From: a virus
Taxonomy: Duplodnaviria > Heunggongvirae > Uroviricota > Caudoviricetes
DNA length: 64,000 nucleotides
Strand: one strand, 5' to 3'
IMG/VR virus record: IMGVR_UViG_3300026549_002476
Shown: positions 8,227 to 52,276 of the stretch, one piece after another
Layout: each line of letters begins with the position of its first letter
How positions within the stretch are numbered: position 1 is the first letter of the stretch
The notes under the pieces: generated by a model
The model's database searches: none
Seen by the model: the letters and a program-made list of their open reading frames with translations, nothing else
Told to the model about the DNA's origin: nothing
Position numbers and translations under genes: made by a program

Positions 8227-8309
8227 TATATTAGTTGGTTTGGGATTAACATTTATATAAAAAGGGTAGTTATTTTAATTTAGGTTTTGTTTTGATATGG
8301 TGAATTGAT

Positions 8310-17066: not shown

Positions 17067-17744
17067 ATGGCTAATATTCTTAGTAGGTTTGGAAGTATCA
17101 TGAGTGCAAACATTAATGCACTCCTTGATAAGGCAGAGGATCCTGAGAAGATGATTGATCAGAACCTTCGTGAGCTTCGTGAAGACCTTGCTGAAGTTAA
17201 GGAGCAGACAGCCGGTGTTATGGCTGATGAGAAGGCAGCTGCTAGAAAGCTTGAGGAGTGCAAGAAACACATCGCTGACTGTGAAAGAGCTCAGGTAAAT
17301 GCTGTTAAAGCTGGAGATGATGATGGTGCTCGGGCAATTATTTCGGAAAAGCTTCATTATCAGGGAAATCTTCCTTCACTTCAGCAGACTTATGATGTTG
17401 CACATGCTAACTCTGAAAAGATGAAGGCTATGTACAATAAGCTTGTTGGTGATATTAATCAACTTGAGTCTCGTAAGGATGCAATCAAGGGAAAGATTGC
17501 AGTAGCTAAGGCAACTGAGAAGGTCAATAAGATGACTTCCAATGCATCTAAAGCCAATTCTTCTATCGAAGATTTTGATAGGTGGGAAGATAGGGCTAAT
17601 AAGATGCTTGACAAGGCAAATGCTGAGACTGAACTTAACCAGCAGGATATAGCAGCTGAGGATTATGTTACAAAGTACAAGGATAGTACTGACTTTGACG
17701 TAGAAGCAGAACTTGCTAAGACAAAAGCAAGTCTTGGAATGTAA
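17067..17744 (+). CDS. pspA: PspA/IM30 family protein (phage-shock protein A / LiaH-like)
   Basis: Strong RBS atggaggaat. N-terminus MANILSRFGSIMSANINALLDKAEDPEKMIDQNLRELREDL closely matches the PspA N-terminus ([28 protein letters not shown]…), with a coiled-coil remainder. Confidence 0.85.
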   Translation: MANILSRFGSIMSANINALLDKAEDPEKMIDQNLRELREDLAEVKEQTAGVMADEKAAARKLEECKKHIADCERAQVNAVKAGDDDGARAIISEKLHYQGNLPSLQQTYDVAHANSEKMKAMYNKLVGDINQLESRKDAIKGKIAVAKATEKVNKMTSNASKANSSIEDFDRWEDRANKMLDKANAETELNQQDIAAEDYVTKYKDSTDFDVEAELAKTKASLGM

Positions 17745-22545: not shown

Positions 22546-22561
22546 ATTATAGAGGTTGTGT

Positions 22562-28376: not shown

Positions 28377-29060
28377 ATGAGATATAACATTAAATGTGAA
28401 CCATTTCCAATAGTTGTATGCAATTTAAGTGATGGCGAGGAAATTATTACTGAAAGCGGAGTGATGGTTTGGATGTCTCCTAACATGGAGATGCAAACAC
28501 AAGCTGGTGGTATAGGTGGATTCTTTTCAAAAACATTATCTGGTGAACATGGATTTACTAATACTTATGTATCACATGGAAAAGGATTAATTACACTCGG
28601 AAGTCACTTTGCAGGACAAATAGTAGATATTGATATAACACCAGAAAAAGATTTTATACTTCAAAAAGGTGCTTTCTTAGGTATGGAATCTGGGGTCAAC
28701 ATGTCAATATTTTTCAGACCAAACCTTGTGACAGGAAGCTTTGGTGGTGAAGGGTTTATAATGCATAGACTTTCAGGGAACGGAAAAGTTTTTGCAGAAG
28801 TAGATGGGTCTTTGGTTAAATATCAGTTGGAACCAGGACAGCAGATGATAGTTAGCACAGGACATGTTATAGGTATGGATTCAACTGTTATAATGGACAT
28901 TAAAACAGTTGCAGGGTTGAAAAATAAATTGTTTGGCGGATATGGATTTTTCAATACTGTTTTAACTGGGCCAGGAGTTATTTATTTGCAGACAATGCCA
29001 ATTAGTAAGTTAGCAAGATCTATTATTCCATACTTACCAAGAGATGACAGTAAATATTAA
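28377..29060 (+). CDS. AIM24/TIGR00266 (DUF124) family protein
   Basis: Gly-rich repetitive beta pattern (GGIGGFFSK…GEGFIMHRLSGNGKVFAEVDGSLVKYQLEPGQQMIVSTGHVIGMD…GGYGFFNTVLTGPGVIYLQTMP) typical of this family. Confidence 0.6.
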   Translation: MRYNIKCEPFPIVVCNLSDGEEIITESGVMVWMSPNMEMQTQAGGIGGFFSKTLSGEHGFTNTYVSHGKGLITLGSHFAGQIVDIDITPEKDFILQKGAFLGMESGVNMSIFFRPNLVTGSFGGEGFIMHRLSGNGKVFAEVDGSLVKYQLEPGQQMIVSTGHVIGMDSTVIMDIKTVAGLKNKLFGGYGFFNTVLTGPGVIYLQTMPISKLARSIIPYLPRDDSKY

Positions 29061-31562: not shown

Positions 31563-32444
31563 ATGACTAAGAATTCTAATATTAAAAGTAAGAGAATTAT
31601 TGTTGTAGCTGTCGTAGTTATTATTGTACTTGCCATTATTAAACAGTCCATAGTGGTAATTCCCACAGGGTATACTGGTGTAAAATCTATTTTTGGGCAG
31701 GTAAGTAAGCAGTCTATGCCTAATGGCATTAATTTTAAAATCCCGTTTGTTGAGAAAGTGACAAAGGTCAATACAAAACAGCAGGATGATTATTTTGAAG
31801 GACAGATTTGGTCAGAGACTTCAGATATGACTGAAATTTACTATGATCAGATTACAGTAACATATCAGATTCTTCCTGACAAGGCTTCATGGATTGTGTC
31901 AAATGTGACGAATTACAGGGATGCTCTTGTGAACGCTACATCTGTGAGTTCTGCTGTAAAGGAAGCATCTCGACAGCTTGATTCTAAAAATGCAACGAAT
32001 CGTGGAAAGATTGAACCTTTAGTTCTGCAGTCTTTACAGGATTCTCTTGATAAGAAATATGGTGATCAGGTGGTAACAATTGATCGTGTTGTAATTGGGG
32101 ATGCTAACTTCGAGGAAAGTTATAACGAAGCTATTGCATCCAGACAGAAAGCCCAGATTGAAGCTGAGCAGCAGGCGATTGAGAACCAGAAAGCGATTGA
32201 CAAGGCGACTGCTGATGCAAAAGTTAAGACAACACAAGCTCAGGCTGATGCAGATGCAGCAGTGATTGAGGCTCAGGGCCAGGCTGATGCAAATAAACTG
32301 TTGAATGATTCAATTACTGATAAAACTTTAAAGCAGCAGTATCTTGATAAGTGGAACGGAGAACTTCCAAAGGTAACTTCTGGTTCTGATGTGATTGTTG
32401 GAATGGATGACCTTGGCAGTTCAGATAGTTCCGGAGCAGACTAA
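31563..32444 (+). CDS. SPFH/band-7 (prohibitin/stomatin/HflKC-like) membrane protein
   Basis: N-terminal TM helix IIVVAVVVIIVLAII, then GYTGVKSIFGQV…FKIPFVEKVTKVNTKQQ… SPFH-like core and an Ala/Gln-rich coiled-coil C-terminus. Confidence 0.65.
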   Translation: MTKNSNIKSKRIIVVAVVVIIVLAIIKQSIVVIPTGYTGVKSIFGQVSKQSMPNGINFKIPFVEKVTKVNTKQQDDYFEGQIWSETSDMTEIYYDQITVTYQILPDKASWIVSNVTNYRDALVNATSVSSAVKEASRQLDSKNATNRGKIEPLVLQSLQDSLDKKYGDQVVTIDRVVIGDANFEESYNEAIASRQKAQIEAEQQAIENQKAIDKATADAKVKTTQAQADADAAVIEAQGQADANKLLNDSITDKTLKQQYLDKWNGELPKVTSGSDVIVGMDDLGSSDSSGAD

Positions 32445-36006: not shown

Positions 36007-36063
36007 TGATTTGACTTATATGTAATGGGGATGTATTTTTAATTAGATTTTGGAGATTTTATT

Positions 36064-36618: not shown

Positions 36619-37004
36619 AGATTATAGATTTTAAGAAAAAGGGAAACGTAGTTAGGTTTTATCTTGGCAATGATAATTTAAAAGACTGGTATGGTGACGA
36701 TTGGAATGACGTCTCATATGAGCACAATGCCGGAGATGTTTATAGCGAGTTTATCAAAGGAACTAAGGACATAGTATTTCCGTTTGATGATCTCGTATTA
36801 GAGCCAAGTGACACTTATGAGGCTGAGAGCGGATACTGTAAGAACGATATGGTTGACAGAAGAATTCCATGTATTATTGTAGTGCCTGGTAAATTAGCTA
36901 CAAATTCATATCATGAAGACTTTGGATATTGGGTTGGATCTGATAAGATTAAGAAGTTTTACTTTGGTGATAAAATGGAACCAGATGAAAATTATAACAA
37001 ATAG
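36615..37004 (+). CDS. hypothetical protein
   Basis: ORF overlapping the nrdG stop (ATGA). Confidence 0.4.
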   Translation: MKIIDFKKKGNVVRFYLGNDNLKDWYGDDWNDVSYEHNAGDVYSEFIKGTKDIVFPFDDLVLEPSDTYEAESGYCKNDMVDRRIPCIIVVPGKLATNSYHEDFGYWVGSDKIKKFYFGDKMEPDENYNK

Positions 37005-37129
37005 TGATGGGAACTCGATCAGCTGGATAGGGCAGAGGAAGACAGCGGAGAACCCGAGTGGGACGTTAGATCACACAAGCCGATGATGTGCGGCAGAGAG
37101 CCAGTCCCGAATATTGAGAGGGTGGACGG

Positions 37130-37285
37130 ATGAAAGAGACAACGCTTTATGTTTGCGAAATCTGCGGCACAAGGTACACCAGCATAACAGAAGCACCTTC
37201 AGAACCTACGGCGGACATGGGCGAAGGTTTTATGCGCATTCCAGACGGGGTAGACGATGAAGGACTCCCATTCAATTGTGGTTAA
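37130..37285 (+). CDS. small zinc-ribbon protein (51 aa, CEICGTRY…)
   Basis: RBS gagagggtggacgg plus ATG at 37130. Below the ORF-track size cutoff. Overlaps the annotated start of the next ORF. Confidence 0.3.
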   Translation: MKETTLYVCEICGTRYTSITEAPSEPTADMGEGFMRIPDGVDDEGLPFNCG

Positions 37286-37682
37286 TGAGGTAACGGAATG
37301 GAGCAAGCAAATGAACATTGAAAATATAGCAATCAAAGATATAAAACTATATGAGCGGAATGCGAAGAAATATGATGAGCGACAAATAAAAAATGTAATG
37401 CAATCAATTAAAAATTATCGCATAGTTCAGCCATTGGTTGTTGATAAAGATAATGTTCTAATAATTGGACATTGTAGACTTATTGCATGTAAACGTTTAG
37501 GCATAACCGAAGTGCATGTTGTGAGAAAAGACGATTTGACACAAGAGGATGTGGACAAATTACGGCTTTTAGACAACAAGTTAAACGAAAGCGAATGGGA
37601 TTTTGATTTACTTTGCGAAGCAGAACAGTGGAAAAGGAAGATCAAAAATGAACACGGAAACGTTAGTAAATCAGATATTTGA
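37257..37682 (+). CDS. ParB-like nuclease domain (ParBc) protein; likely true start 37311
   Basis: IAIKDIKLYERNAKKYDERQIKNVMQSIKNYRIVQPLVVDKDNVLIIGHCRLIACKRLGITEV matches the ParB N-terminal/ParBc core. Confidence 0.5.
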   Translation: MKDSHSIVVNEVTEWSKQMNIENIAIKDIKLYERNAKKYDERQIKNVMQSIKNYRIVQPLVVDKDNVLIIGHCRLIACKRLGITEVHVVRKDDLTQEDVDKLRLLDNKLNESEWDFDLLCEAEQWKRKIKNEHGNVSKSDI

Positions 37683-37905
37683 AAAAGAGCCGAATGCCGT
37701 TACACCGAATGATATTATGCGGTTTCCTTCCGCACAGCCAGAACGTCAGAAGGGTGAGTGGATAGAAATACCCTCAATAAGTCACACTTATAAATGCTCA
37801 GAGTGTGGAAGGCTTCTTGTCAATATCACGGATGGTAAAAACAATGTTGCAAGGAATTATCCGTATTGTCACTGTGGAGCAGATATGAGAGGTGAACAGG
37901 AATGA
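37648..37905 (+). CDS. small zinc-ribbon protein (CSECG…YCHCGADM)
   Basis: RBS ggaaaaggaag plus ATG at 37648. CxxC…CxC, tail similar to other Zn-ribbon proteins in the window. Confidence 0.4.
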   Translation: MNTETLVNQIFEKEPNAVTPNDIMRFPSAQPERQKGEWIEIPSISHTYKCSECGRLLVNITDGKNNVARNYPYCHCGADMRGEQE

Positions 37906-38150
37906 TTGATGCAGGTACGATCTTGGAAGTTACAAGAAATCTGATAGGTGCAACCGAGCCATACGGCGATTCTGCCATTGACAGAGAGCGTACGCAGAAT
38001 CTTGACAAGCTGATTTACATCGTTGATGAATTGCTATATGACGTTGAGAAGGTGGCGGTTAATAAAGCATTGGAAGCAATAGAGGCGTTGCCATCCGCAC
38101 AGCAGTGGATACCGTGCAGTGAAGTGACCGGAGAAAGGAAAGAAGAATGA
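37902..38150 (+). CDS. hypothetical small protein
   Basis: ATGA overlap with the upstream stop. Confidence 0.35.
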   Translation: MIDAGTILEVTRNLIGATEPYGDSAIDRERTQNLDKLIYIVDELLYDVEKVAVNKALEAIEALPSAQQWIPCSEVTGERKEE

Positions 38151-38302
38151 ACATCAGAGCATGCAAGGGATGTATTTATTTCACAAAATATTACGGAAAC
38201 AAGAACAAGAAGGGCGAACAAACCGTAAGCAACTATTGGTGCGTAGCAAAGCAAACAATGCTTAAGAGGTTTCCAAAAGAATGCGAAAGGAAAGAAGAAT
38301 GA
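38147..38302 (+). CDS. small Cys-containing protein (51 aa)
   Basis: ATGA overlap with the upstream stop (translational coupling). CKGC…C…C residues. Confidence 0.25.
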   Translation: MNIRACKGCIYFTKYYGNKNKKGEQTVSNYWCVAKQTMLKRFPKECERKEE

Positions 38303-38332
38303 CAAAACGTTTCAAAAGATGTCTGGTGGCAG

Positions 38333-38530
38333 ATGATTCAGCTTCTTCCAGAATCTTATAATCAGCGAAGAACTATCACGATGAACTACGAGAATGTCTT
38401 TACGATCATTAAGCAGAGAAGTGGACACAAGTTGGATGAGTGGGTTGAGTTCATTAAAATTCTTAAAACACTGCTGTATGTAATGGAGATTGGAGGTATG
38501 AATGACAAAGGAGGAAATGGCAATGAGTGA
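38333..38530 (+). CDS. hypothetical small protein
   Basis: ORF track only. Confidence 0.25.
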   Translation: MIQLLPESYNQRRTITMNYENVFTIIKQRSGHKLDEWVEFIKILKTLLYVMEIGGMNDKGGNGNE

Positions 38531-38843
38531 GTATAAGTTAATTGCTGAAGAGGGATATAATGATGGATATTACTGGGATCAGAGGTACTGCTTTGAACTA
38601 GATGGTAAGCGATACATTTTGGTAGATGTTGGAAGCTTGTCTGGATATATCTCAAACCATGGAGAAATCATGGAAGTGGAAAACGATGAAAGTCTAGATA
38701 TTTTGCTTAAAGATTGGGATATTGATAAAATGGATAAACCACATGATCTTGCTGAGGAAGACGCAATTCAATATGTAAAGCAATTAAAGGAGTCGGGGAT
38801 ACAGGCAGGTGAATCGTTTGAACTGTGGAGCTATGATTGGTAA
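38502..38843 (+). CDS. hypothetical protein
   Basis: ORF with RBS-like ggagg upstream. Confidence 0.35.
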   Translation: MTKEEMAMSEYKLIAEEGYNDGYYWDQRYCFELDGKRYILVDVGSLSGYISNHGEIMEVENDESLDILLKDWDIDKMDKPHDLAEEDAIQYVKQLKESGIQAGESFELWSYDW

Positions 38844-38988
38844 GTTGAGCAGTTTCGACCAAAATAAGATAGATGCTTTTTACAAGGGTTCAGTACCTAT
38901 TGCCTGGATGCCATTACCAAAGTCATACAATGCAGAAACGAGGTAGAGAAGAAATTCATTATACTAAGCAATTATAGGAGAAATAACT

Positions 38989-39495
38989 ATGAAGACATTC
39001 ACTGAGGCTGAAAAAACTATTGCCAGAAATATTGATTGGGAGTATAAATGGATGGCTAGAGACTGGGATGGAAATTTGTGTATTTATGAAGAAAAGCCTA
39101 AGAAAAGAAATGACAGATGGATCTCTGATGATTATGATTACATTTTCTATTTCAACTATTTGTTTTCAGCTATCAAATGGGAGGACGATGAGCCTACTTT
39201 AATTCGTGATATCTACAATCCGCCGGTTCTTAACGACGCGGAGCGGGAATATCTCAAAACGGTTCTGAAACCATTTCATGAGAATGTGGCTTATGTTGAA
39301 AAAGTACATTATTATCCTATAAACGGAGATACTTCTTCTAGTCTGGCATTCTTATTCATAAAACTTCATGACGGAAAGCTAGAATTTCCTAATTTTGATT
39401 TGAGAAAAATGTACTTGGGAATGGAGTTAAACAAAAAGTATAAGATGGGCGAACTTGGAATTACATACGAGGAGGATAATCATGACGATCAATGA
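38989..39495 (+). CDS. hypothetical protein
   Basis: RBS aggag plus ATG. Confidence 0.4.
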   Translation: MKTFTEAEKTIARNIDWEYKWMARDWDGNLCIYEEKPKKRNDRWISDDYDYIFYFNYLFSAIKWEDDEPTLIRDIYNPPVLNDAEREYLKTVLKPFHENVAYVEKVHYYPINGDTSSSLAFLFIKLHDGKLEFPNFDLRKMYLGMELNKKYKMGELGITYEEDNHDDQ

Positions 39496-39737
39496 AAAGC
39501 AGGAACTTGTAAAGCCAGTAGTACACGCGCTGGGTGCCATGTGAAGACGAATACGAAGATGAATATAAATGTTCTGTATGCGGCGGAACCCATTTTTCGC
39601 TATGACACCGCAAGATGAAGGATGGGAATATTGCCCACATTGCGGCGCAAAGATGGACGAGAAGACGGACGATTAAACTAACGAGCTTGTAAGTCAAAAA
39701 AATCCACGATTATTGAACTAAGAGAGGAGCGAGAAAA

Positions 39738-40319
39738 ATGAAAATCGAGAGAATGACAGAAATTGAGACATCCGTTATCGAAGTTGGCGACCGGATCCAC
39801 GTCGATCACTACACGGCGACATGTCAGGAACTCACGCCGAAGGGCGCGCTATTCTTCCTCGATCAGTACCTCGACAAGGCATATCCGATGAATCTGAATA
39901 ACACCAACAAGGGCGGCTACCCGGAGAGCGATCTGCGGAAAGCTCTGCAAAGCGACGAGGTGCTTAATATCTTTGCGGACATCCGCGACTACATGGTTCC
40001 GTTCGATAACGGCGATCTGCTCCGGATCCCGTTCGCCGGAGAGATGTTCGGCGACGAGGTGCCGCAATGGATCGAGTCTGACAGCAATGAACAGTGGCCG
40101 CTCATGAAAGACGCGCACAACCGCATAGCGTCAAGGTGCGGAGATCCCGAATGGGGATGGCTCGCGAACACATCCCGCGATACCTCGCCGGCTTTCTGCT
40201 CTGTCACCGCCTACGGCGCTGCGAACGGCTGGCTCGCCTCGTACGTCTTCGGGGTCCGGCCGGTTTTCCTGATCGCGCGCGAGACTATAGCAGATGAGGG
40301 AAAAGATGAGACTGGTTGA
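39738..40319 (+). CDS. DUF6273-like domain protein encoded in a GC-rich segment well above the surrounding AT-rich DNA
   Basis: Strong RBS gagaggag. WGWLANTSRD…GWLASYVFGVRPVF resembles the W-L-R-S…G-V-R-P-A signature of DUF6273. Confidence 0.4.
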   Translation: MKIERMTEIETSVIEVGDRIHVDHYTATCQELTPKGALFFLDQYLDKAYPMNLNNTNKGGYPESDLRKALQSDEVLNIFADIRDYMVPFDNGDLLRIPFAGEMFGDEVPQWIESDSNEQWPLMKDAHNRIASRCGDPEWGWLANTSRDTSPAFCSVTAYGAANGWLASYVFGVRPVFLIARETIADEGKDETG

Positions 40320-40358
40320 TGCAGATGCGTTAGCGGTGAGGGAAATGCGGAGTTTAGG

Positions 40359-40649
40359 ATGATGTTACATAAGTGGAATTATAAAACCAATGAGTATGAT
40401 CCCTACGAAGTCCCGGACGGCTGGGATGTATCGACTTTCGAGACTGATATGGGATCTATAGTCAACTGTGCGGAATGTGGGAAATCAATCACGTTCGGGC
40501 AAGGATACACCAGCAGGAAGATCCACACGCTTTTCGGCATGGGATATGTCGTTTGCAAAGACTGTTACGACAAAGAAATATTAAGGTGTTTTGCACTATC
40601 GCGGCAGCAACATTTATCACGATTATCGCGAGTAGGATTGCGCTCATAA
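40359..40649 (+). CDS. small zinc-ribbon protein (CAECG…CKDC)
   Basis: ORF with two CxxC pairs. Confidence 0.35.
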   Translation: MMLHKWNYKTNEYDPYEVPDGWDVSTFETDMGSIVNCAECGKSITFGQGYTSRKIHTLFGMGYVVCKDCYDKEILRCFALSRQQHLSRLSRVGLRS

Positions 40650-40699
40650 CAGCGCTTCTGAAAGTGAGAAAATTTCAGGAGGAAAGCAGGGAGTAAGTA

Positions 40700-41077
40700 A
40701 TGAAAGTGCATGAATTAGCATCACAGCTTAGCGAGTATATTGAGTCTAGACACGCAGAGGATACTGTTGTAATCGCTCTGCAGGAAAGAAGCTTCGGCCC
40801 GGAAGCGGCAGAAGAGGTGAAATATTGCTGTGCGGGATTTGATTGGGACAATGGAAGGATCTTCCTTGTTCCGAAAGAACCTCTTGTGCATTACAGAAAC
40901 GAAAGGGACAAAGCACAGTCCGCAATCCGGATAAGTTACAAAAATAACTATGGCGGAAAGATCAGACCAACACTTCATTGTCCGCGATGCGAAGCAAAGC
41001 TGAGCAAGGAAATGAGATATTGCCCTAAATGTGGGCAGCGCGTTGACACAGAAAATGTACGTGACGTCATGATTTAA
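40700..41077 (+). CDS. zinc-ribbon protein with C-terminal CPRC…YCPKCGQRV tail
   Basis: Strong RBS caggaggaaagcaggg. The C-terminal 22 codons are duplicated at 41432-41497. Confidence 0.45.
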   Translation: MKVHELASQLSEYIESRHAEDTVVIALQERSFGPEAAEEVKYCCAGFDWDNGRIFLVPKEPLVHYRNERDKAQSAIRISYKNNYGGKIRPTLHCPRCEAKLSKEMRYCPKCGQRVDTENVRDVMI

Positions 41078-41097
41078 AAGGAGAAAAAGGAGAAAAA

Positions 41098-41466
41098 ATG
41101 AGTAAAGAAATGTTGGTAACGGTTAATGGTGGCCGGTTATATTTCAAGGTGAATGCAAAAACGGCAAGTGCCGGGTTTGACCATCTTATGGAGGCGCTCA
41201 ATGACGCCGGCATTGACGTGTCGAACGTTGAGTTTGGAAGCTGCGAGCTTCGAGATGAGAACGGAGGCACAATAGATGAATTTCAGATCAATCCGGCACG
41301 CAATCGCCATTATGACTGTAATCATGATTGTGATGCAGTCTATCAGGCTTATCAGAAAGGTAAGCACGACGAGCGCAATCGCATCCTGAAAGCAATTTTA
41401 TGCTCGAAAAACGGGCAGAGAGGGAATAAAAATGAGGTATTGCCCGAAATGTGGGGAGAGCGTTGA
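41098..41466 (+). CDS. hypothetical protein; its 3' end runs out of frame into a duplicated zinc-ribbon tail (possible frameshifted gene)
   Basis: RBS aaaggagaaaaaggag. Ends NEVLPEMWGER* while the +1 frame reads MRYCPKCGESVDTENVHDVLI. Confidence 0.35.
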   Translation: MSKEMLVTVNGGRLYFKVNAKTASAGFDHLMEALNDAGIDVSNVEFGSCELRDENGGTIDEFQINPARNRHYDCNHDCDAVYQAYQKGKHDERNRILKAILCSKNGQRGNKNEVLPEMWGER

Positions 41467-41584
41467 CACAGAAAATGTACATGATGTCTTGATTTAAGAG
41501 CACTTTTTCTAGAAAGGAAAAATATTATGAGATGTATGACTGTGATGTTTACTTATATGCATTAGCAAATATGTATTGATAGCC

Positions 41585-41846
41585 TATAAATAATAGGGGT
41601 ATGATTTTTAATTAAGAATTTAAAAAGTTGTTATTTATAAGGTCAACATTAATTAAAAACAAACTTATAAAAAATTGAAGAATGACTTATAAATAATAAG
41701 GGTATGATTTTTAATTAAGAATTTGAAAAATTGTTATTTTATAAGACCGACATCAATTAAAAATAAACTTATAAAAAATTGAAGAATGACTTATAAATAA
41801 TAAAGGTATGATTTTTAATTAAGAATTTGAAAAATTGTTATTTTGG
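41585..41846. repeat. tandem direct repeat, about 2.5 copies of a 103-104-bp AT-rich unit
   Basis: Units begin tataaataatagggg… at 41585, 41688 and 41792. Near-identical copies. Confidence 0.85.
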
Positions 41847-41911
41847 TTAAAACATTCCGGCCGGATGTTTAACAATATAAATGTGTTAAACCTACTAAGA
41901 TTAGAAACGTA

Positions 41912-42059
41912 GAGAATAAAGGATTAAAGGATTAAAAGGTTAAAAGGATTAAAAGGTAAAAGGATCATTTATTTTCAAAGGTTTAAAGCATTTAAAGGTA
42001 AAAGAAACTAAAGGTAAAAAGGTAAAAAAGGTTAAAAGCATTTTGGAGGTTTAAGAATT
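41912..42059 (+). promoter_or_regulatory. A/G-rich microrepeat leader (AAAGGWTWAA-like elements) ending in the RBS ggaggt of the gp32-like gene; candidate unstructured translational operator or UP-like element
   Basis: taaaggattaaaggattaaaaggttaaaaggattaaaaggtaaaagg … aaaggtaaaaaggtaaaaaaggttaaaag. Purine-only, low-structure sequence. Confidence 0.4.
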
Positions 42060-43247
42060 ATGGCACTTAAGAGTTTTATCTCTACGGCTAAGCGTGTAAC
42101 TGATGTGAGGACTTTCCTCAAGGATTCTGCTAAGGGAAACAGTATCAAGTATACTTCTGAGCAGAACAAGAGAGATGTTCTGTATGTACCCATGATCAAG
42201 CAGCAGGTTACCGATGAGAATGGAAATACTGTTGAGGTCAATTCCATTATTTCTATTGAAGCTGACATTCATGAGTGGCGTGACAGTAGCAACAATTCTT
42301 TCCATGGTTGTGTCTGTATGAAGAATGTTGTACGCACTGATGATGATGGAAATACCATCAATGACGGTACTTGCCCGTTCTGTGACAGAGTTAATGATAG
42401 CTGGGCTATCTACAACTACAGAAAGAACATTGAGGAAGCTAACTGCAAGCTGACTGGTGATGATCGTGACAAGTTCCTCAAGGAGAAGGGATCATCATTC
42501 CGTGACGAGATGAAGATTAAGGCAGCAAAGCCTTACATGTATATCCTCGTTGCAAAGTTTAGAACTGAGGGGAATCAGTTTGTACTTGATGATTCTGGTA
42601 TGCCTGAATATGATCTCAAGGTTTGGAAGGTTTCTGCAAGCCGTGCACAGGCTCTGTATGATATTCCTCACAATACTGGCCTTGAACTTCCGGGATGTAC
42701 TCTTGTTATCAAGTATCCGGATGAAGCAAACGTAATGCAGAGAGCTGGTCATGCAACAATTACTGCTACTAACCAGCCGACTATTGCTCCGACTGCTAAG
42801 TATCCGGCACTTGCTGATAAGATCAATGCAGAAGCAGCAAAGTTCGATTGGGAAGGCATTTCTAAGGCATTCCCTGAGTTTGAAGGTATGTCTACTGCAC
42901 AGGCTAAGAAGATTATGGATAACAGCTTTGAGCAGTGGGATTCTTACCAGAAGGAACTTGAGGTTAACAAGGATGCTAAGTACCTTGAGTATGTAGTTGA
43001 GCCTGTTAAGACTGCTCCGTCAACTGTTACTCCTGCTCTTGGAGCTGTTCCTGTTCCTAACATTCCGAATGTTGGTCAGGCAGCTAATGTTCAGATGCCA
43101 GGTCAGGGCGTCCAGCCGACAGTACAGCAGGCAGTACCTCAGCAGGCAGCACCTCAGCAGGCAGCACCTCAGCAGGCAGCACCTCAGCAGGCAGCACCTC
43201 AGCAGAGCAATCCGTTTGCAAATATGGCACCAACTCTTAATCTGTAA
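42060..43247 (+). CDS. putative T4 gp32-like ssDNA-binding protein with C-terminal (P-Q-Q-A-A)n repeats
   Basis: Strong RBS ggaggtttaag. Zn-site-like H…C-x-C…C-P-F-C as in gp32 (His64/Cys77/Cys87/Cys90). YMYILVAKF… and LKVWKVSASRAQALYD resemble the gp32 core (YWANILVVKDP, VFKYRFGKKIWDKI). GC-rich codon usage and a strong terminator suggest high expression. Confidence 0.45.
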   Translation: MALKSFISTAKRVTDVRTFLKDSAKGNSIKYTSEQNKRDVLYVPMIKQQVTDENGNTVEVNSIISIEADIHEWRDSSNNSFHGCVCMKNVVRTDDDGNTINDGTCPFCDRVNDSWAIYNYRKNIEEANCKLTGDDRDKFLKEKGSSFRDEMKIKAAKPYMYILVAKFRTEGNQFVLDDSGMPEYDLKVWKVSASRAQALYDIPHNTGLELPGCTLVIKYPDEANVMQRAGHATITATNQPTIAPTAKYPALADKINAEAAKFDWEGISKAFPEFEGMSTAQAKKIMDNSFEQWDSYQKELEVNKDAKYLEYVVEPVKTAPSTVTPALGAVPVPNIPNVGQAANVQMPGQGVQPTVQQAVPQQAAPQQAAPQQAAPQQAAPQQSNPFANMAPTLNL

Positions 43248-43280: not shown

Positions 43281-43318
43281 GGGCACGGCATTGAATATAA
43301 ATGTCGTGCCCTTTTTTT
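43281..43318 (+). terminator. strong rho-independent terminator
   Basis: gggcacg…cgtgccc stem followed by ttttttt. Confidence 0.8.
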
Positions 43319-43344
43319 ATTACTAATTGACATTAGGACAAAAG

Positions 43345-48672: not shown

Positions 48673-49176
48673 ATGAAAAGAGTCTATTTTGATCAAGATG
48701 GTGTCTTAGCTGAATATAAAGTTGAATCAACGGATGTAGATTATGCCCGTGAAGGATACTATTCAGAATTAAAACCAACTAAAGTAGTTGAATATGTTAA
48801 TTCATTGATTAAAGCAAACATAGCTGAAGTATATGTAATAACAATATATTATAAAAAGCCTGCATTTAAAGAAAAAGACGAATGGATGAGCAGATACTTA
48901 CCAAGCTTGGATTCAAAACATAGAATAATTCTTCCTTGGGGAAGCAGTAAGCCATTAGAAGTCGAAAAGATAACAGGTTGTAGGCTAAGCAGTAATGATA
49001 TATTGGTAGATGATCATACTCCAAACTGTTTAGATTGGCAAAGTTTTGGTGGTATGGCAATCAAATGGATTAATGGTATAAACGGAAATCGAAATAGGTT
49101 TAATGGATTACGTATTGACAATTTAAATGAATTAGATAGCATTATTACTGGAGGCAAATTACTGTGGAAAACGTAA
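48673..49176 (+). CDS. NT5C-family 5'(3')-deoxyribonucleotidase (HAD superfamily)
   Basis: N-terminus KRVYFDQDGVLAEY carries the D-x-D-G-V-L motif of NT5C/HAD phosphatases. Confidence 0.55.
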   Translation: MKRVYFDQDGVLAEYKVESTDVDYAREGYYSELKPTKVVEYVNSLIKANIAEVYVITIYYKKPAFKEKDEWMSRYLPSLDSKHRIILPWGSSKPLEVEKITGCRLSSNDILVDDHTPNCLDWQSFGGMAIKWINGINGNRNRFNGLRIDNLNELDSIITGGKLLWKT

Positions 49177-49760
49177 AATTTAGAGTAACAAAGAATAATA
49201 GTGATAGTTTTGGAAAGTATCTTTCTTATCTGCTTAGACATCATCCTGATAAGATTAATCTTTGGGTTGATCTTGATGGCGGTTGGACTAACACAGATGA
49301 TCTTATTGAGAAGATCAATGCATCTGATACAAATCCATTTACAATTACTAAGCCTGTACTTATTGATATTGTAGAAGCTGATGAAAAGAAGAGATTCTCT
49401 TTTAGAGATGATTATAGATACATTAGAGCAAACAGCGGTCATTCTATTCCGGTTCAGCTGAAGTTTGATGAAGTTACACCTGAGAATGATTTGTTCCACG
49501 GGACAGCTCCTCGTACTGCTAAGAGTATTCAGCAGAGTAAGTACATTATTCCAATGAACAGAATGTATGTGCATCTTTCAGATAATGTTGAAACTGCTAA
49601 AAAGGTTGGCGCTAGACATTGTAAGGACGGAGAAACTCCTGTTGTATTTCGTATTGATGTAAAGAAATGTCTTGAACTTGGTGTGAAATTCTATAAGTCA
49701 GAGAATGGAATTTATATGGCAACTAGAATTCCAACTGAAGCAATCAAGGTTGAAGAGTAA
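49164..49760 (+). CDS. kptA: RNA 2'-phosphotransferase Tpt1/KptA
   Basis: GTG start with RBS ggagg. FGKYLSYLLRHHPDKINLWVDLDGGWTNTDDLI, KRFSF, GHS, LFHGTAPRTAKSI, YVHLSDNVETAKKVGARH align well with E. coli KptA (SKFLSFVLRHKPE…, LYHGTASRF…, YVHLSADEATARKVGARH). Confidence 0.85.
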   Translation: MENVKFRVTKNNSDSFGKYLSYLLRHHPDKINLWVDLDGGWTNTDDLIEKINASDTNPFTITKPVLIDIVEADEKKRFSFRDDYRYIRANSGHSIPVQLKFDEVTPENDLFHGTAPRTAKSIQQSKYIIPMNRMYVHLSDNVETAKKVGARHCKDGETPVVFRIDVKKCLELGVKFYKSENGIYMATRIPTEAIKVEE

Positions 49761-50761: not shown

Positions 50762-52276
50762 ATGAATCAACAACAAGCTTATTGCATAATAATAGTCAGC
50801 ATTAAGAAAAATTATGTGACTGGTAAAATAATTTCTTACGATATTATAACAAATAGAGGGGAAGTGCTGTTTGACCTTAGAGAAGAAGAATTACTTGTAA
50901 AAGTATGGTCTCTTAGGGGAAGTAATGTTGTAACAGTCAATTTTGAAGTAAATAAAAATAAAATTGTTATGTTAAACATGCTTCCTGGTAAGAAAGCTAG
51001 GTATTATGCTAAAAAGACAGTATCAAAATCTGAAAGAAGATATTTTTACATTGTTGTAACTGGATATGACATGAATAATGGAACTTTTGACTATGTTGCA
51101 GAAAAGCCAGATAGAAAGGTTATTCGTGGAAACAGTGCAATTATAGAAGAACTTGTTGGATTGCCAATAAGCAGCAATGATGATTCTGCTGACTTGAGAT
51201 TTTATAATGCATATATAGATAACACAATAAGTAGTAGAAAAACAATGTTTAGACTTGTAGTATATAATAAAAATACTGATGGATATACAGTTCTTCCAGT
51301 TGCTAGAATAAGCAAAAAAGATTTTAACTTAAAGATTAATAGTGATTTTTCAGCACATGGGTTTAAACAAGAAAATGCTGGAATAACTATTAGAAAGATA
51401 ACTCAAGATATAGTAAGAAGAGATAGTACACTCGAAATTCCAGATGGTGTAACTCAATTAGGTAGACTTGAATCATATGGGCCTGTTATAGTATCTTGTC
51501 CAGACTCATTAGTTAACCTTGGAAATGGTTGTTTTGCTAAATATGTAAATCATAGGAACGGTGAATCTTTTAATAAAGCAAATATACTAAATGAGCAAGA
51601 CTATACAGAGTGCCAGTTATCAGAGATATACTTAGGTTCTGGCATTCGAATTATTCCAAAAGATTGTTTTGCATATTCACCAGTTAAGTTTGTGCAGTTA
51701 TCCGGTAGGGAAGTATATATAGCAAATGGGGCTTTTAAATACACAGAGAATCTTAGCGGAACAGTAAGTACAACTGCTAGAAAAATAGGAGTATCTGCTT
51801 TTGAAGGTTCTGGAATAAATACGTTTACTGGGGATAAGCTAGAGTACATTGGTATGAAAGCCTTTAGTAAATGTCCAAACTTATACAGAGTAAAGATCAA
51901 AGGCGAGTTACTGATTATTGGAATGAATATCTTTGATGGAGATGCTAACCTAAGATATGTGTCATTACCAGATAGTGTTGAAGAAATAGGGGCTGAAGCA
52001 TTTCGTGGTTGTAAGCAATTAACAATGATGTTCATGCCAAGAAACATTAGGAAGGTTGGAATAAATGCTTTTAAAGGTTCTGGATTAGCTCAAGCTATAT
52101 TTGGAAATAGCCTTGAAAAAATAGATGAATCAGCATTTGATGATTGTAAGGAAATTCAAAGAATTGAAATACCAAGCACTGCTAAAATAATTCATCGAAT
52201 GAATGATAAAAAGGAACATTTATTAACATCAGAGAAACTCCAGAAAAGATATAATGTTAGAGTATATAAAGTTTAA
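50762..52276 (+). CDS. protein with C-terminal BspA-type leucine-rich repeats
   Basis: Repeats …GNGCFAKY / IPKDCFAYSPV / IANGAFKYTENL / IGVSAFEGSGI / IGMKAFSKCPNL / IGMNIFDGDANL / IGAEAFRGCKQL / VGINAFKGSGL / IDESAFDDCKEI. Confidence 0.55.
   Translation: MNQQQAYCIIIVSIKKNYVTGKIISYDIITNRGEVLFDLREEELLVKVWSLRGSNVVTVNFEVNKNKIVMLNMLPGKKARYYAKKTVSKSERRYFYIVVTGYDMNNGTFDYVAEKPDRKVIRGNSAIIEELVGLPISSNDDSADLRFYNAYIDNTISSRKTMFRLVVYNKNTDGYTVLPVARISKKDFNLKINSDFSAHGFKQENAGITIRKITQDIVRRDSTLEIPDGVTQLGRLESYGPVIVSCPDSLVNLGNGCFAKYVNHRNGESFNKANILNEQDYTECQLSEIYLGSGIRIIPKDCFAYSPVKFVQLSGREVYIANGAFKYTENLSGTVSTTARKIGVSAFEGSGINTFTGDKLEYIGMKAFSKCPNLYRVKIKGELLIIGMNIFDGDANLRYVSLPDSVEEIGAEAFRGCKQLTMMFMPRNIRKVGINAFKGSGLAQAIFGNSLEKIDESAFDDCKEIQRIEIPSTAKIIHRMNDKKEHLLTSEKLQKRYNVRVYKV

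What the first reader, a model, noticed from the sequence alone, without database searches (positions are those of the whole stretch)
41912..43247. gp32-like SSB preceded by a 150-nt purine-only AAAGG/UAAA microrepeat leader: possible autoregulatory translational operator
T4 gp32 represses its own translation by cooperative binding to an unstructured A/U-rich 5' leader containing repeated UUAAA elements. Here the putative gp32-like gene (Zn-site H/C-x-C/C-P-F-C, core similarity, high-expression codon usage, strong terminator) is preceded by a long leader of repeated aaaggattaaaag / aaaggtaaaa elements running into the RBS ggaggt.
Basis: inference. Interest (0 to 1): 0.6.

Follow-up and report, generated by a model that had tools for sequence, protein, structure and literature searches.

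The report
Phage SSB gene with microrepeat leader
A phage gene for a zinc-binding single-stranded-DNA-binding protein with the fold of T4 gp32 sits behind a long, weakly structured mRNA leader built from 8-9-base repeats; leaders of this kind, with different repeat sequences, recur across a family of uncultured gut phages and may let the protein limit its own synthesis, though this is untested.

Summary
The 148 nt before ORF 42060 are not purine-only (A72 T39 G32 C5). They do hold 11 AAAGG and 13 UAAA elements at 8-9-nt spacing, which is unique in the 64 kb.

The gene looks like a self-contained, highly expressed unit: three copies of a promoter-like motif, a ~240-nt leader, strong codon bias and an intrinsic terminator.

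Across 41 homologous loci the leaders are long, A-rich and C-poor. About half carry short tandem arrays of unrelated sequence, most often with a 9-nt period. A 99 %-identical strain has 9 AAAGG units instead of 11.

A T4-like autoregulatory lattice is the best single explanation (about 0.4), but nothing tests it directly. A pure translation-enhancer or stabiliser role is nearly as likely. No pseudoknot is predicted, and the leader is not uniquely unstructured.

Verdict: a new variant of a known kind, of moderate interest.

The parts
41585..41844 (+). 104-bp tandem repeat, 2.5 copies at 93 % identity. Each copy carries the promoter-like motif (A/G)GGTATGATTTTTAATT, at 41597-41613, 41700-41716 and 41804-41820.
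   Evidence: TRF and alignment A2. A motif search finds 5 sites in the window, all on the + strand and intergenic, against 0.29 expected. The other two sites lie 46 nt and 36 nt before ORFs 8310 and 36064. Copy 1 also scores as TTGATA-18-TATGAT. Function as a promoter is inferred.
41850..41870 (+). Imperfect palindrome AAACATTCCGG/CCGGATGTTT between the last promoter-like motif and the repeat leader. It could be a 5' stem-loop.
   Evidence: Read from the sequence. Folding of 41838-41915 gives -10.5 kcal/mol, z = -0.06 against shuffles, so it is not significantly structured. Homologous loci have stronger hairpins at the equivalent position. This part is tentative.
41912..42044 (+). Microrepeat leader. 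Block A (41917-41965) has 6 units of U(U)AAA(A)GG(A)(U). A 25-nt U-rich spacer follows. Block B (41977-42038) has 5 more AAAGG units. The stretch runs into the RBS.
   Evidence: Composition is A72 T39 G32 C5. Folding of the 171 nt at 41905-42075 gives -12.9 kcal/mol. The window 41921-42040 gives -6.1 kcal/mol against a window mean of -20.0, sd 5.8. There are stop codons in all three frames. A 99 %-identical strain has 9 units instead of 11.
42045..42049 (+). Shine-Dalgarno GGAGG, 10 nt before the ATG.
   Evidence: The duplex with the 16S 3' end is -10.5 kcal/mol, against -4 to -6 for the AAAGG units.
42060..43247 (+). Gene for a 395-aa zinc-type SSB with the gp32 fold. The core is about residues 30-320. 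Putative zinc ligands are H71 (42270-42272), C86 (42315-42317), C105 (42372-42374) and C108 (42381-42383). Residues 322-395 form a disordered Pro/Gln/Ala linker with a conserved C-terminal tip.
   Evidence: Codon bias.
43125..43205 (+). 15-nt coding tandem repeat, 5.4 copies at 98 % identity, encoding (AAPQQ)n in the disordered linker.
   Evidence: TRF. The linker region carries tandem arrays in about 22 homologues.
43281..43321 (+). Intrinsic terminator: a 12-bp stem with 7 G-C pairs, followed by TTTTTTTATT.
   Evidence: A comparable terminator follows the SSB gene in 32 of 33 homologous loci.

Best explanation
ORF 42060-43247 encodes the phage's single-stranded-DNA-binding protein. It is a remote structural relative of T4 gp32: an OB-fold core with a His-Cys3 zinc site, a short N-terminal segment, and a disordered linker ending in a conserved tip.

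The gene appears to be its own highly expressed transcription unit. It has three tandem copies of a promoter-like motif, a roughly 240-nt 5' leader, strongly biased codons and its own terminator.

The last ~130 nt of the leader form an A-rich, C-poor, weakly structured RNA made of 8-9-nt U(U)AAA(A)GG units that runs into the Shine-Dalgarno sequence.

Proposed mechanism, inferred by analogy and not shown here:
- While replication exposes ssDNA, the protein is titrated away and the open leader supports efficient initiation.
- Once free protein accumulates, it coats this RNA lattice cooperatively.
- The coat spreads over the RBS and shuts off translation of the protein's own mRNA, as T4 gp32 does.

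The tandem-repeat construction would be the mutational route (slippage) by which the length of an unstructured lattice is made and tuned. This would explain why relatives have arrays of unrelated sequence and why close strains differ in copy number.
For: Shown, protein:
- BFVD relatives include the annotated SSB of Lactobacillus phage Lb338-1.
- H71, C86, C105 and C108 are four of the five invariant columns (the fifth is P182) down to 16 % identity.
- These four align on T4 H64/C77/C87/C90 (hhalign P = 0.003).
- A distant relative gives a sub-threshold PF08804 hit.
- The neighbours are RNase H and SbcC/SbcD-like genes. No other SSB was found among the ORFs scanned.

Shown, transcription unit:
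- The promoter-like motif is enriched (5 sites against 0.29 expected).
- A terminator is present and occurs in 32 of 33 homologous loci.
- Codon bias is seen in 27 of 27 and 29 of 29 loci.

Shown, leader:
- It holds 11 AAAGG, 13 UAAA and 7 UUAAA. UUAAA/UAAA repeats are a defining part of the T4 operator (PMC535899, PMC3014915).
- It has low predicted structure.
- The long leader is specific to the SSB gene in this window.

Shown, family:
- Leaders in the 33 loci where the upstream ORF end is on the contig are 79-617 nt, with 35-52 % A.
- 23 of 69 short-period arrays fall in the 4 % of sequence that is SSB leader (P about 1e-15).
- 12 of 41 leaders are strongly periodic, against 3 of 38 control intergenic regions (P = 0.015).
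- A hairpin with compensatory base changes in a sub-clade shows that these leaders can act as RNA.
- Copy number differs between 99 %-identical strains.

Inferred: binding of the protein to the leader, and repression.
Against: - No pseudoknot or significant 5' structure is predicted in the window. In T4 the pseudoknot is essential for repression (PMC535899).
- The leader is among the least structured stretches but is not unique: rank 13 of 6388 120-nt windows, the sixth distinct locus.
- Its folding energy is no different from shuffles of the same composition (z = +0.5).
- Only about 30-50 % of homologous leaders have arrays.
- The absence of UAAA and AAAA from the coding region is explained by codon usage alone, so it adds no independent evidence.
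- A long unstructured A-rich leader is also what a pure translational enhancer would look like.
- The transcription start is not mapped.
- Nothing is known about the RNA affinity of this protein family.
Confidence: 0.4

Rival explanations
1. Translation enhancer, ribosome standby site or mRNA stabiliser with no feedback. The long A-rich leader keeps the RBS open and recruits 30S subunits or ribosomal protein S1. Weak SD-like AAAGG units might help. The result is very high output of a protein needed in stoichiometric amounts.
For: - The gene shows strong high-expression codon bias.
- It has three copies of the promoter-like motif and its own terminator.
- The leader is weakly structured.
- AAAGG(A) pairs with the 16S 3' end at -4 to -6 kcal/mol, and 46 % of leader positions reach -4 or better against 16 % in the background.
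- Some relatives have CA-rich tails next to the RBS.
Against: - Across the family, leaders are not enriched in anti-SD-complementary sites (mean 0.128 against 0.141; higher in 16 of 38 loci).
- Many arrays (ACGAGUAAA, GAGAAACCA, UUUAACAA) are not SD-like.
- Other genes behind the same promoter-like motif have short leaders.
- An enhancer role does not by itself explain a recurrent 9-nt period.
Confidence: 0.3
2. Binding lattice for a different trans-acting RNA-binding protein. Candidates are a host CsrA-type (GGA motifs) or Hfq-type (A-R-N) factor, or a phage RegA-like repressor. The SSB itself would not be the binder.
For: - The leader has 4 GGA motifs besides the SD.
- Repeated short motifs are typical of multivalent RNA-binding proteins.
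- A conserved hairpin with an invariant loop in a sub-clade looks like a sequence-specific protein site.
Against: - Repeat sequences are unrelated among homologues whose proteins are 40-50 % identical. This argues against one sequence-specific binder.
- The GGA motifs are not presented in hairpin loops.
- No Rfam family matches.
- No RegA-like or other RNA-binding regulator was recognised among the scanned ORFs.
Confidence: 0.1
3. No specific function for the repeats. The SSB gene simply has a long non-coding spacer, and slippage-prone low-complexity sequence accumulates there neutrally.
For: - Copy number differs between near-identical strains.
- Unit sequences are unrelated between relatives.
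- Only about half of the loci have arrays.
- Contigs break or are scaffolded with Ns in this region.
Against: - Arrays are concentrated about 8-fold in SSB leaders relative to the rest of the loci. They are rare in 38 other intergenic regions of at least 120 nt.
- A > T in 39 of 41 leaders, and all are C-poor.
- The arrays share a modal 9-nt period.
- Phage genomes are compact, yet this is the longest intergenic region of the window at 593 nt.
Confidence: 0.12
4. A double-stranded-DNA element rather than an RNA element. It could be replication-origin iterons, or a binding array for a transcription factor or nucleoid protein next to the replication genes.
For: - Direct repeats and AT-rich DNA lie beside a replication module.
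- Large 104-bp direct repeats lie immediately upstream.
Against: - There is consistent strand asymmetry: the sense strand is A-rich and C-poor in nearly all loci.
- The position is always between the promoter-like motif and the SD.
- An 8-9-bp period is out of phase with the DNA helix.
- Cumulative GC skew shows no inflection here.
- A sub-clade replaces the arrays with an RNA hairpin supported by compensatory changes.
Confidence: 0.08

Closest known systems
T4 gene 32 protein (gp32) and its autogenous translational operator (PMC535899; PMC3014915)
   Same: - It has a His + 3 Cys zinc site in the same register.
- It lies in a replication/recombination context.
- The leader is A(+U)-rich and weakly structured, holds many UUAAA/UAAA elements, and is continuous with the RBS.
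- The T4 leader itself reads ...UUAAUUAAAUUAAAUUAAAAAGGAAAUAAAAAUG.
   Different: - No significant sequence similarity exists.
- No pseudoknot is predicted.
- The unstructured part is about 130 nt against about 40 nt in T4.
- The leader is built from 8-9-nt tandem units carrying GG, not 5-nt UUAAA units.
- Three tandem copies of a promoter-like motif precede it.
- The C-terminus is a Pro/Gln/Ala linker plus a short conserved tip, not an acidic Ser/Asp-rich domain.
- The N-terminus has no evident (K/R)3(S/T)2 'LAST' motif.
- Repression is untested.
Gene 32 operators of RB69 and RB49 (PMC535899)
   Same: These show that the mRNA target of gp32-type proteins diverges quickly. RB49 is reported to keep the UUAA/UUAAA units but to lack the pseudoknot, which is the situation seen here.
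   Different: Those phages are close T4 relatives with recognisable gp32 sequences. Whether RB49 gp32 autoregulates is itself unproven.
SSB-like proteins of Firmicute myoviruses found by structure search (Lactobacillus phage Lb338-1 'SsDNA binding protein', Bacillus phage SP-15, Staphylococcus phage phiSA_BS1, Enterococcus phage EFGrKN)
   Same: Foldseek E-values are 2e-7 to 4e-5 against the model. Lengths are similar (about 400 aa). The hosts are Firmicutes, which fits the GGAGG RBS and the occurrence in a Lachnospiraceae MAG.
   Different: Identity is only 11-14 %. tblastn against 50,697 GenBank phages finds nothing at E < 1e-5. The leaders of those genes were not examined.
STAB-SD 5' mRNA stabiliser of Bacillus thuringiensis cryIIIA (own knowledge: Agaisse & Lereclus 1996)
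   Same: SD-like purine motifs lie in a long 5' UTR far upstream of the start codon, in a Gram-positive setting.
   Different: STAB-SD is a single strong SD (GAAAGGAGG). Here there are 11 weak sites (-4 to -6 kcal/mol against -10.5 for the real SD), and relatives use units that are not SD-like.
Bacterial SSB architecture (own knowledge): OB core, intrinsically disordered linker and conserved C-terminal tip
   Same: The Pro/Gln/Ala-rich linker is disordered (pLDDT < 50 for residues 322-395) and ends in a conserved short motif (consensus DPNAVF...). The linker is repeat-prone.
   Different: The core is gp32-like and contains zinc. It is not the homotetrameric PF00436 OB fold.

Membership tests
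gp32 family (Pfam PF08804, T4-type SSB) | Significant sequence match to the PF08804 profile or to gp32 sequences | tested here: not met
   - No PF08804 hit for the window protein or for any of 36 family members, even at E <= 10.
- phmmer and hmmsearch against PDB sequences find no gp32.
- hhalign gives P = 0.057 with A1 and P = 0.003 with A4, at 1-10 % probability.
- One distant relative (P0204) gives a sub-threshold hit: E = 0.017, 15.5 bits against a cut-off of 26.8.
gp32 family (Pfam PF08804, T4-type SSB) | gp32 core fold (OB fold with a zinc-binding subdomain) | tested here: met
   - The AF2 model has core pLDDT mostly 86-95 between residues 31 and 310 (two 10-residue blocks at 77-83).
- The next hits are other OB-fold DNA binders (HIN domains, RPA70).
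gp32 family (Pfam PF08804, T4-type SSB) | His-Cys3 zinc site (T4 H64, C77, C87, C90) | tested here: met
   - H71, C86, C105 and C108 are invariant in 36 close sequences and 30 distant ones.
- hhalign puts them exactly on T4 H64, C77, C87 and C90.
- Metal binding itself was not tested.
gp32 family (Pfam PF08804, T4-type SSB) | Basic N-terminal cooperativity domain (LAST motif) and acidic C-terminal protein-interaction domain | tested here: inconclusive
   - The N-terminus has a conserved SF(L/I)xxAxKxVxDVRxFLR segment, disordered then helical, with no (K/R)3(S/T)2 motif.
- The C-terminus is Pro/Gln/Ala-rich with a DPNAVF-type tip and is not acidic.
- Functional equivalence is unknown.
gp32 family (Pfam PF08804, T4-type SSB) | Cooperative, sequence-independent ssDNA binding | not testable with these tools
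   Needs purified protein.
T4 gene 32-type autogenous translational operator | 5' RNA pseudoknot that nucleates binding | tested here: not met
   Only a weak imperfect palindrome is present (41850-41870). The fold of 41838-41915 gives z = -0.06. RNAfold cannot predict pseudoknots, but no second complementary segment was seen by eye, and Rfam gives no hit. RB49 is reported to lack the pseudoknot too (PMC535899).
T4 gene 32-type autogenous translational operator | Unstructured A+U-rich segment of more than 40 nt, with several UUAAA/UAAA repeats, overlapping the RBS | tested here: met
   - 7 UUAAA and 13 UAAA lie in 148 nt (expected 0.6 and 1.9).
- The last 100 nt fold at -6.1 kcal/mol, within the top 1.6 % of the window.
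- The 120-nt window ranks 13 of 6388.
- The array ends 6 nt before the SD.
T4 gene 32-type autogenous translational operator | The element lies in the 5' UTR of the SSB's own mRNA | not testable with these tools
   This is inferred from promoter-like motifs 240-460 nt upstream and from an RNA hairpin with covariation in the leaders of relatives. No transcript data are available.
T4 gene 32-type autogenous translational operator | Translation repressed by the cognate SSB when it is in excess over ssDNA | not testable with these tools
   Needs in vitro translation or reporter assays.
STAB-SD / multi-SD standby leader | Strong complementarity of the upstream elements to the 16S rRNA 3' end, conserved among relatives | tested here: not met
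   - The units pair at -4 to -6 kcal/mol, against -10.5 for the true SD.
- No leader position reaches -7 or better.
- Family-wide, leaders are not enriched over coding sequence (16 of 38 loci).
CsrA/Rsm-type multi-GGA leader | Several GGA motifs, typically in hairpin loops, conserved among relatives | tested here: not met
   Four GGA motifs occur besides the SD. They are not in predicted loops, and they are absent from most homologous leaders.

The most novel reading that the evidence does not exclude
The 8-10-nt tandem units may act as a molecular ruler that matches the occluded site size of this SSB, with one monomer bound per unit. The array would then be a cooperative operator whose length sets the free-SSB concentration at which translation shuts off. 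Replication slippage would re-tune that set-point quickly. This would explain three observations:
- Unrelated unit sequences share a modal 9-nt period across the family.
- 99 %-identical strains differ in copy number (11 against 9).
- A sub-clade uses repeated hairpin modules instead.

Probability: 0.2. Interest if true: 0.75.

Novelty: new variant of a known kind. Interest (0 to 1): 0.55.

Why it matters
T4 gp32 is the textbook case of a sequence-independent nucleic-acid-binding protein that still represses only its own mRNA. How it achieves that specificity was never settled structurally, and the system is known only from T4-like coliphages.

This work turns up a sequence-unrecognisable branch of the same fold:
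- It comprises 111 clusters at 50 % identity among 1.84 billion representatives.
- None of its members lies in a cultured or GenBank phage.
- Its genes carry long, A-rich leaders that are often tandem-repeated and change rapidly.

If the leaders are operators, two things would follow. SSB autoregulation would be an ancient and general trait of gp32-fold proteins. Natural variation in unit sequence, period and copy number would also provide ready-made material for testing which property confers specificity: lattice length, lack of structure, or sequence.

If the leaders are only enhancers, they are still compact, portable 5' UTR modules for high expression in Firmicutes.

In either case the protein family deserves annotation as an SSB.

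Tried and rejected
Searches that found nothing:
- Sequence searches of the protein against Pfam, PHROGs, NCBIfam and PDB.
- Foldseek against PDB. The disordered tails probably hurt the search.
- tblastn against 50,697 GenBank phages.
- IMG/VR gave only one locus. The scan of 185,579 species genomes gave two, both in one Lachnospiraceae MAG.
- Rfam on the window region and on seven relatives.
- Literature searches found no prior description of this family or of repeat leaders before SSB genes. This is not proof of absence.

Ideas tested and dropped:
- T4-late-type TATAAATA promoters. There are 15 sites against 13.5 expected, so no enrichment.
- A multi-SD or STAB-SD explanation as a family-wide rule.
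- The coding region avoiding the leader motifs as independent evidence for operator uniqueness. The observed zero UAAA/AAAA is striking against genome density, but synonymous-codon shuffles expect only 1.2 and 0.8 (P = 0.2-0.3). It is a by-product of codon bias.
- The leader as the uniquely unstructured site of the genome. It ranks 13 of 6388, and several coding stretches are equally open.
- Folding energy against composition-matched shuffles. There is no difference (z = +0.5), so low structure comes from composition rather than arrangement.
- A leader peptide encoded by the repeats. All three frames contain stops, and 8.5 nt is not a codon multiple.
- Similar arrays elsewhere in relatives as evidence of a regulon. 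The two candidates (L018 at 1133-1185 and L020 at 4369-4444) turned out to be coding repeats.
Full report
WHAT IS IN THE SEQUENCE

ORF 42060..43247 (+) encodes 395 aa. It starts at an ATG ten nt after GGAGG (42045-42049). An intrinsic terminator follows it: a 12-bp stem at 43281-43311 with 7 G-C pairs, then a T-run.

The 148 nt before the ORF (41912-42059) are A72 T39 G32 C5. The stretch is 70 % purine, 26 % T and almost free of C.

The repeat claim is right and far beyond chance.
- There are 11 AAAGG, against 0.29 expected from the window's own density (Poisson P about 2e-14).
- There are 13 UAAA (expected 1.9) and 7 UUAAA (expected 0.6).
- AAAGG starts are spaced 8, 9, 8, 9 and 7 nt in a first block (41918-41959). 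After a U-rich spacer come five more at 41977, 41994, 42010, 42018 and 42027.
- The last unit ends a few bases before the SD.
- No other 150-nt window outside this locus has more than about 3-4 AAAGG.
- This is the longest intergenic region of the window (593 nt) and the only one with such an array.
- All three frames of the leader contain stops, and the 8.5-nt period is not a multiple of three.

THE PROTEIN

Sequence methods are blind to this protein. Pfam, PHROGs, NCBIfam and PDB sequences give nothing. None of 36 family members hits PF08804, even at E <= 10.

The protein belongs to a compact, wholly unannotated family.
- The word-indexed search finds 188 hits.
- An exhaustive HMMER search of 1.84 billion representatives finds 111 clusters at 50 % identity, 73 of them at E < 1e-30.
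- There is no match in 50,697 GenBank phages and only one in IMG/VR.
- There are two matches in 185,579 species genomes, both in one Lachnospiraceae MAG.

An AlphaFold2 model built on 36 homologues is confident for the core. pLDDT is mostly 86-95 for residues 31-310, and below 50 for residues 1-14 and 322-395.
- Foldseek against BFVD finds the annotated ssDNA-binding protein of Lactobacillus phage Lb338-1, plus proteins of Bacillus SP-15, Staphylococcus phiSA_BS1, Lactobacillus LpeD and Enterococcus EFGrKN (E from 2e-7 to 4e-5).
- In an alignment reaching 16 % identity, the only invariant columns are H71, C86, C105, C108 and P182.
- hhalign of that profile against T4 gp32 produces one aligned stretch. 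It puts those four residues exactly on the T4 zinc ligands H64, C77, C87 and C90 (P = 0.003, probability only 10 %).
- One distant relative gives a sub-threshold PF08804 hit (E = 0.017).

The neighbours are an RNase H with an RNase H1-type N-terminal domain and an SbcC/SbcD-like pair. The window also carries an intein-containing PolA, a primase, clamp and clamp-loader-like genes and NrdD/NrdG. No other SSB was recognised.

I conclude, with about 0.85 confidence, that this is the phage's SSB and that it has the gp32 fold and zinc site. It is not a member of the Pfam gp32 family by sequence. Its termini also differ from T4: it has a Pro/Gln/Ala linker with a conserved DPNAVF-type tip instead of an acidic domain, and no LAST motif.

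THE TRANSCRIPTION UNIT

A 104-bp repeat lies upstream (41585-41844, 2.5 copies, 93 % identity). Each copy carries (A/G)GGTATGATTTTTAATT.

This motif occurs five times in the window, against 0.29 expected, always on the + strand and in intergenic DNA. The other two copies lie 46 nt before a clamp-loader-like gene and 36 nt before the NrdG-like gene. I read it as a promoter for replication genes; this is an inference. The same motif gives other genes short leaders but leaves about 240 nt before the SSB gene.

The SSB coding region has a distinct codon usage.
- Lys is AAG in 30 of 30 codons, against 0.25-0.6 in neighbouring genes.
- GC3 is 0.43, against about 0.2-0.3.
- The same bias appears in 27 of 27 and 29 of 29 homologous loci.
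- It favours AAG, CAG, ATC, TTC, CTT/CTG and CGT.

A strong terminator follows the gene in 32 of 33 loci.

RELATIVES

I collected 41 homologous loci and located their start codons.
- Where the upstream ORF end is on the contig (33 loci), the upstream intergenic regions are 79-617 nt.
- The last 200 nt are 35-52 % A and 4-20 % C, with A > T in 39 of 41 loci.
- TRF finds 69 short-period arrays in 247 kb. Of these, 23 lie in the 250-nt SSB leaders, which make up 4 % of the sequence (P about 1e-15), in 20 of 42 loci. Most of the rest are coding repeats in the SSB linker.
- By a stricter ungapped autocorrelation test, 12 of 41 leaders are periodic (z >= 3), against 3 of 38 other intergenic regions (Fisher P = 0.015).

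The unit sequences are unrelated: UAAAAGGAU here, ACGAGUAAA(C) x10 in L017, GAGAAACCA x11 in L024, AGAGAGUUA in L018, GAGAGAAAA in L031 and UUUAACAA in L039. Even so, the commonest period is 9 nt, with 8.5 nt here and 9.5 nt in L017.

A sub-clade (L005, L012, L014, L016, L019, L022, L024, L046) carries a different module instead, or in addition. It consists of one to three copies of a 5-bp hairpin with a conserved 9-nt loop, (A/G)C(G/A)UA(A/U)GG(G/A), and a CA-rich tail. The last copy lies about 50 nt before the AUG.
- All cells pair.
- Three of the five pairs show compensatory double changes.
- Shifted registers pair in only 20-48 % of cells.
- The module is not in Rfam.

That hairpin shows these leaders can act as RNA.

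Two further contigs carry the same phage.
- One is identical to the window and breaks inside the 104-bp repeat.
- The other has a 99 %-identical SSB. It has 9 AAAGG units instead of 11, one unit fewer in each block, and more 104-bp copies across a scaffold gap.

Both repeat systems are therefore polymorphic, with the caveat that repeats are error-prone in assembly.

STRUCTURE OF THE LEADER

- The 171 nt at 41905-42075 fold at only -12.9 kcal/mol. This is no different from shuffles of the same composition (z = +0.5), so low structure comes from composition.
- The 100 nt before the RBS give -6.1 kcal/mol, against a background of -15.7 +/- 5.2. This places them in the top 1.6 %.
- 16 of 41 homologous leaders fall in the top 10 % of their own loci. 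Several fold at 0 to -3 kcal/mol.
- On a finer scan the window's leader ranks 13 of 6388 120-nt windows and is the sixth distinct locus. It is very open but not unique.
- The imperfect palindrome at 41850-41870 is not significantly structured, and I see no pseudoknot.

DISCRIMINATING TESTS

- Anti-SD pairing. The AAAGG units pair with the 16S 3' end at -4 to -6 kcal/mol, against -10.5 for the true SD. Family-wide, leaders are not enriched in such sites (16 of 38 loci). A multi-SD standby or STAB-SD model may contribute here but is not the general rule.
- Motif avoidance. The SSB coding region contains no UAAA, UUAAA, AAAA or AAAGG (expected 15, 5, 17 and 2 from genome density). It is also much more structured than average (-28.7 against -20.0 kcal per 120 nt). 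Synonymous-codon shuffles show that the motif absence follows from codon usage, so it is not independent evidence.
- T4-late-type TATAAATA boxes are not enriched.

INTERPRETATION

[quoted passage not shown] That segment holds several UUAAA/UAAA repeats and includes the RBS. Both parts are needed for repression (PMC535899, PMC3014915). The T4 leader itself reads ...UUAAUUAAAUUAAAUUAAAAAGGAAAUAAAAAUG.

The window meets the second criterion amply and fails the first. RB49 is reported to have the same combination (PMC535899).

Four observations make a cooperative SSB lattice over the RBS the best single explanation:
- the gp32 fold of the protein;
- the restriction of long leaders to the SSB gene;
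- the family-wide selection for A-rich, open, strand-asymmetric leaders;
- the indifference to unit sequence.

I put this at about 0.4, because no result here addresses binding or repression. A feedback-free enhancer or stabiliser would look similar and gets about 0.3. The two roles are also not mutually exclusive. The remaining rivals are another RNA-binding protein (0.1), neutral slippage (0.12) and a dsDNA element (0.08). They are disfavoured by the sequence diversity of the units, their concentration in SSB leaders, the strand asymmetry and the RNA hairpin with covariation.

The recurrent 9-nt period remains unexplained. T4 gp32 occludes 7 nt (PMC10484735). A testable guess is that this larger protein occludes 8-10 nt and that the units act as a ruler.

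NOVELTY AND LIMITS

The kind of system, a gp32-type SSB with an A-rich operator-like leader, is known. The new elements are:
- a sequence-unrecognisable, uncultured branch of the fold;
- leaders three times longer than in T4, built from tandem 8-10-nt units or hairpin modules that turn over quickly;
- tandem copies of a promoter-like motif upstream.

I found no prior description in the searchable literature.

Limits of this analysis:
- The transcription start is inferred.
- The loci include some near-duplicates (L021/L025/L035, L031/L032, L037/L040, L009/L011), so the effective sample is nearer 30.
- Weak TRF arrays (score 30-40) may include chance matches.
- Copy-number differences rest on short-read assemblies.

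Noticed in passing
window 41585-41844; L045 830-1300: A 104-bp tandem repeat (2.5 copies, 93 % identity) carries one promoter-like motif per copy. A 99 %-identical strain contig has at least 4-5 copies across an N-filled scaffold gap, and a third contig ends inside the repeat. The copy number therefore appears polymorphic, or is an assembly problem.
   Followed up: partly
window 8264-8280, 36028-36044, 41597-41613, 41700-41716, 41804-41820: The motif RGGKWDKWTWTTTAATT (GGGTATGATTTTTAATT type) occurs 5 times against 0.29 expected. All copies are on the + strand and intergenic, before the clamp-loader-like gene, the NrdG-like gene and the SSB gene. It is probably a phage promoter class for replication genes. 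Diverged versions lie 120-270 nt upstream of the SSB gene in relatives.
   Followed up: partly
L005 2385-2473; L012 2357-2474; L014 2268-2311; L016 2355-2472; L019 296-339; L022 44-135; L024 2430-2473; L046 ~190-400: A conserved RNA hairpin module occurs in the SSB leaders of a sub-clade. It has a 5-bp stem with compensatory changes at 3 of 5 pairs (100 % paired), an invariant-type 9-nt loop (A/G)CGUA(A/U)GG(G/A) and a CA-rich tail. There are 1-3 copies, the last about 50 nt before the AUG. It is not in Rfam and is absent from the window.
   Followed up: partly
window 43125-43205 and the equivalent linker regions of about 22 homologous loci: The disordered Pro/Gln/Ala linker of the SSB is itself a hotspot of coding tandem repeats (here (AAPQQ) x5.4). 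Its length and sequence vary widely across the family, while the C-terminal tip (DPNAVF-like) is conserved.
   Followed up: partly
window ~37000-41470: A GC-rich island (GC 0.42-0.57 against about 0.32; ORF 39738-40319 has GC 0.57 and GC3 0.71) lies directly upstream of the SSB unit. It holds small ORFs, at least one with a zinc ribbon (40700-41077). Its composition suggests recent acquisition.
   Followed up: no
window 22556-27274: The family-A DNA polymerase ORF of 1572 aa contains a LAGLIDADG/intein-like insert. The homologous polymerase in L001 has one too.
   Followed up: no
window 42060-43019 and 27 homologous loci: The SSB gene is the codon-usage outlier of every locus. AAG accounts for 0.79 of Lys codons against 0.43 elsewhere, ATA for 0.07 of Ile against 0.47, and TTA for 0.13 of Leu against 0.40. 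In the window all 30 Lys codons are AAG. As a result the coding region has no AAAA or UAAA at all and is unusually structured.
   Followed up: yes
window 17067-17744, 28377-29060, 31563-32444, 49164-49760, 50762-52276: The window also holds unusual cargo for a phage replication region: a PspA/IM30 homologue, an AIM24-family protein, an SPFH/Band-7 protein, a Tpt1/KptA RNA 2'-phosphotransferase and a BspA-type leucine-rich-repeat protein.
   Followed up: no
homologous loci L001, L003, L005, L009, L012, L016, L027, L046 (about 150-250 nt upstream of the SSB ATG): A short GC-rich hairpin, often followed by a T-run and then a TATAAAT-like box, lies between the promoter-like motif and the leader. 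It could be the terminator of the upstream unit, an attenuator or a 5' stabilising stem-loop. The window's counterpart (41850-41870) is weak.
   Followed up: no
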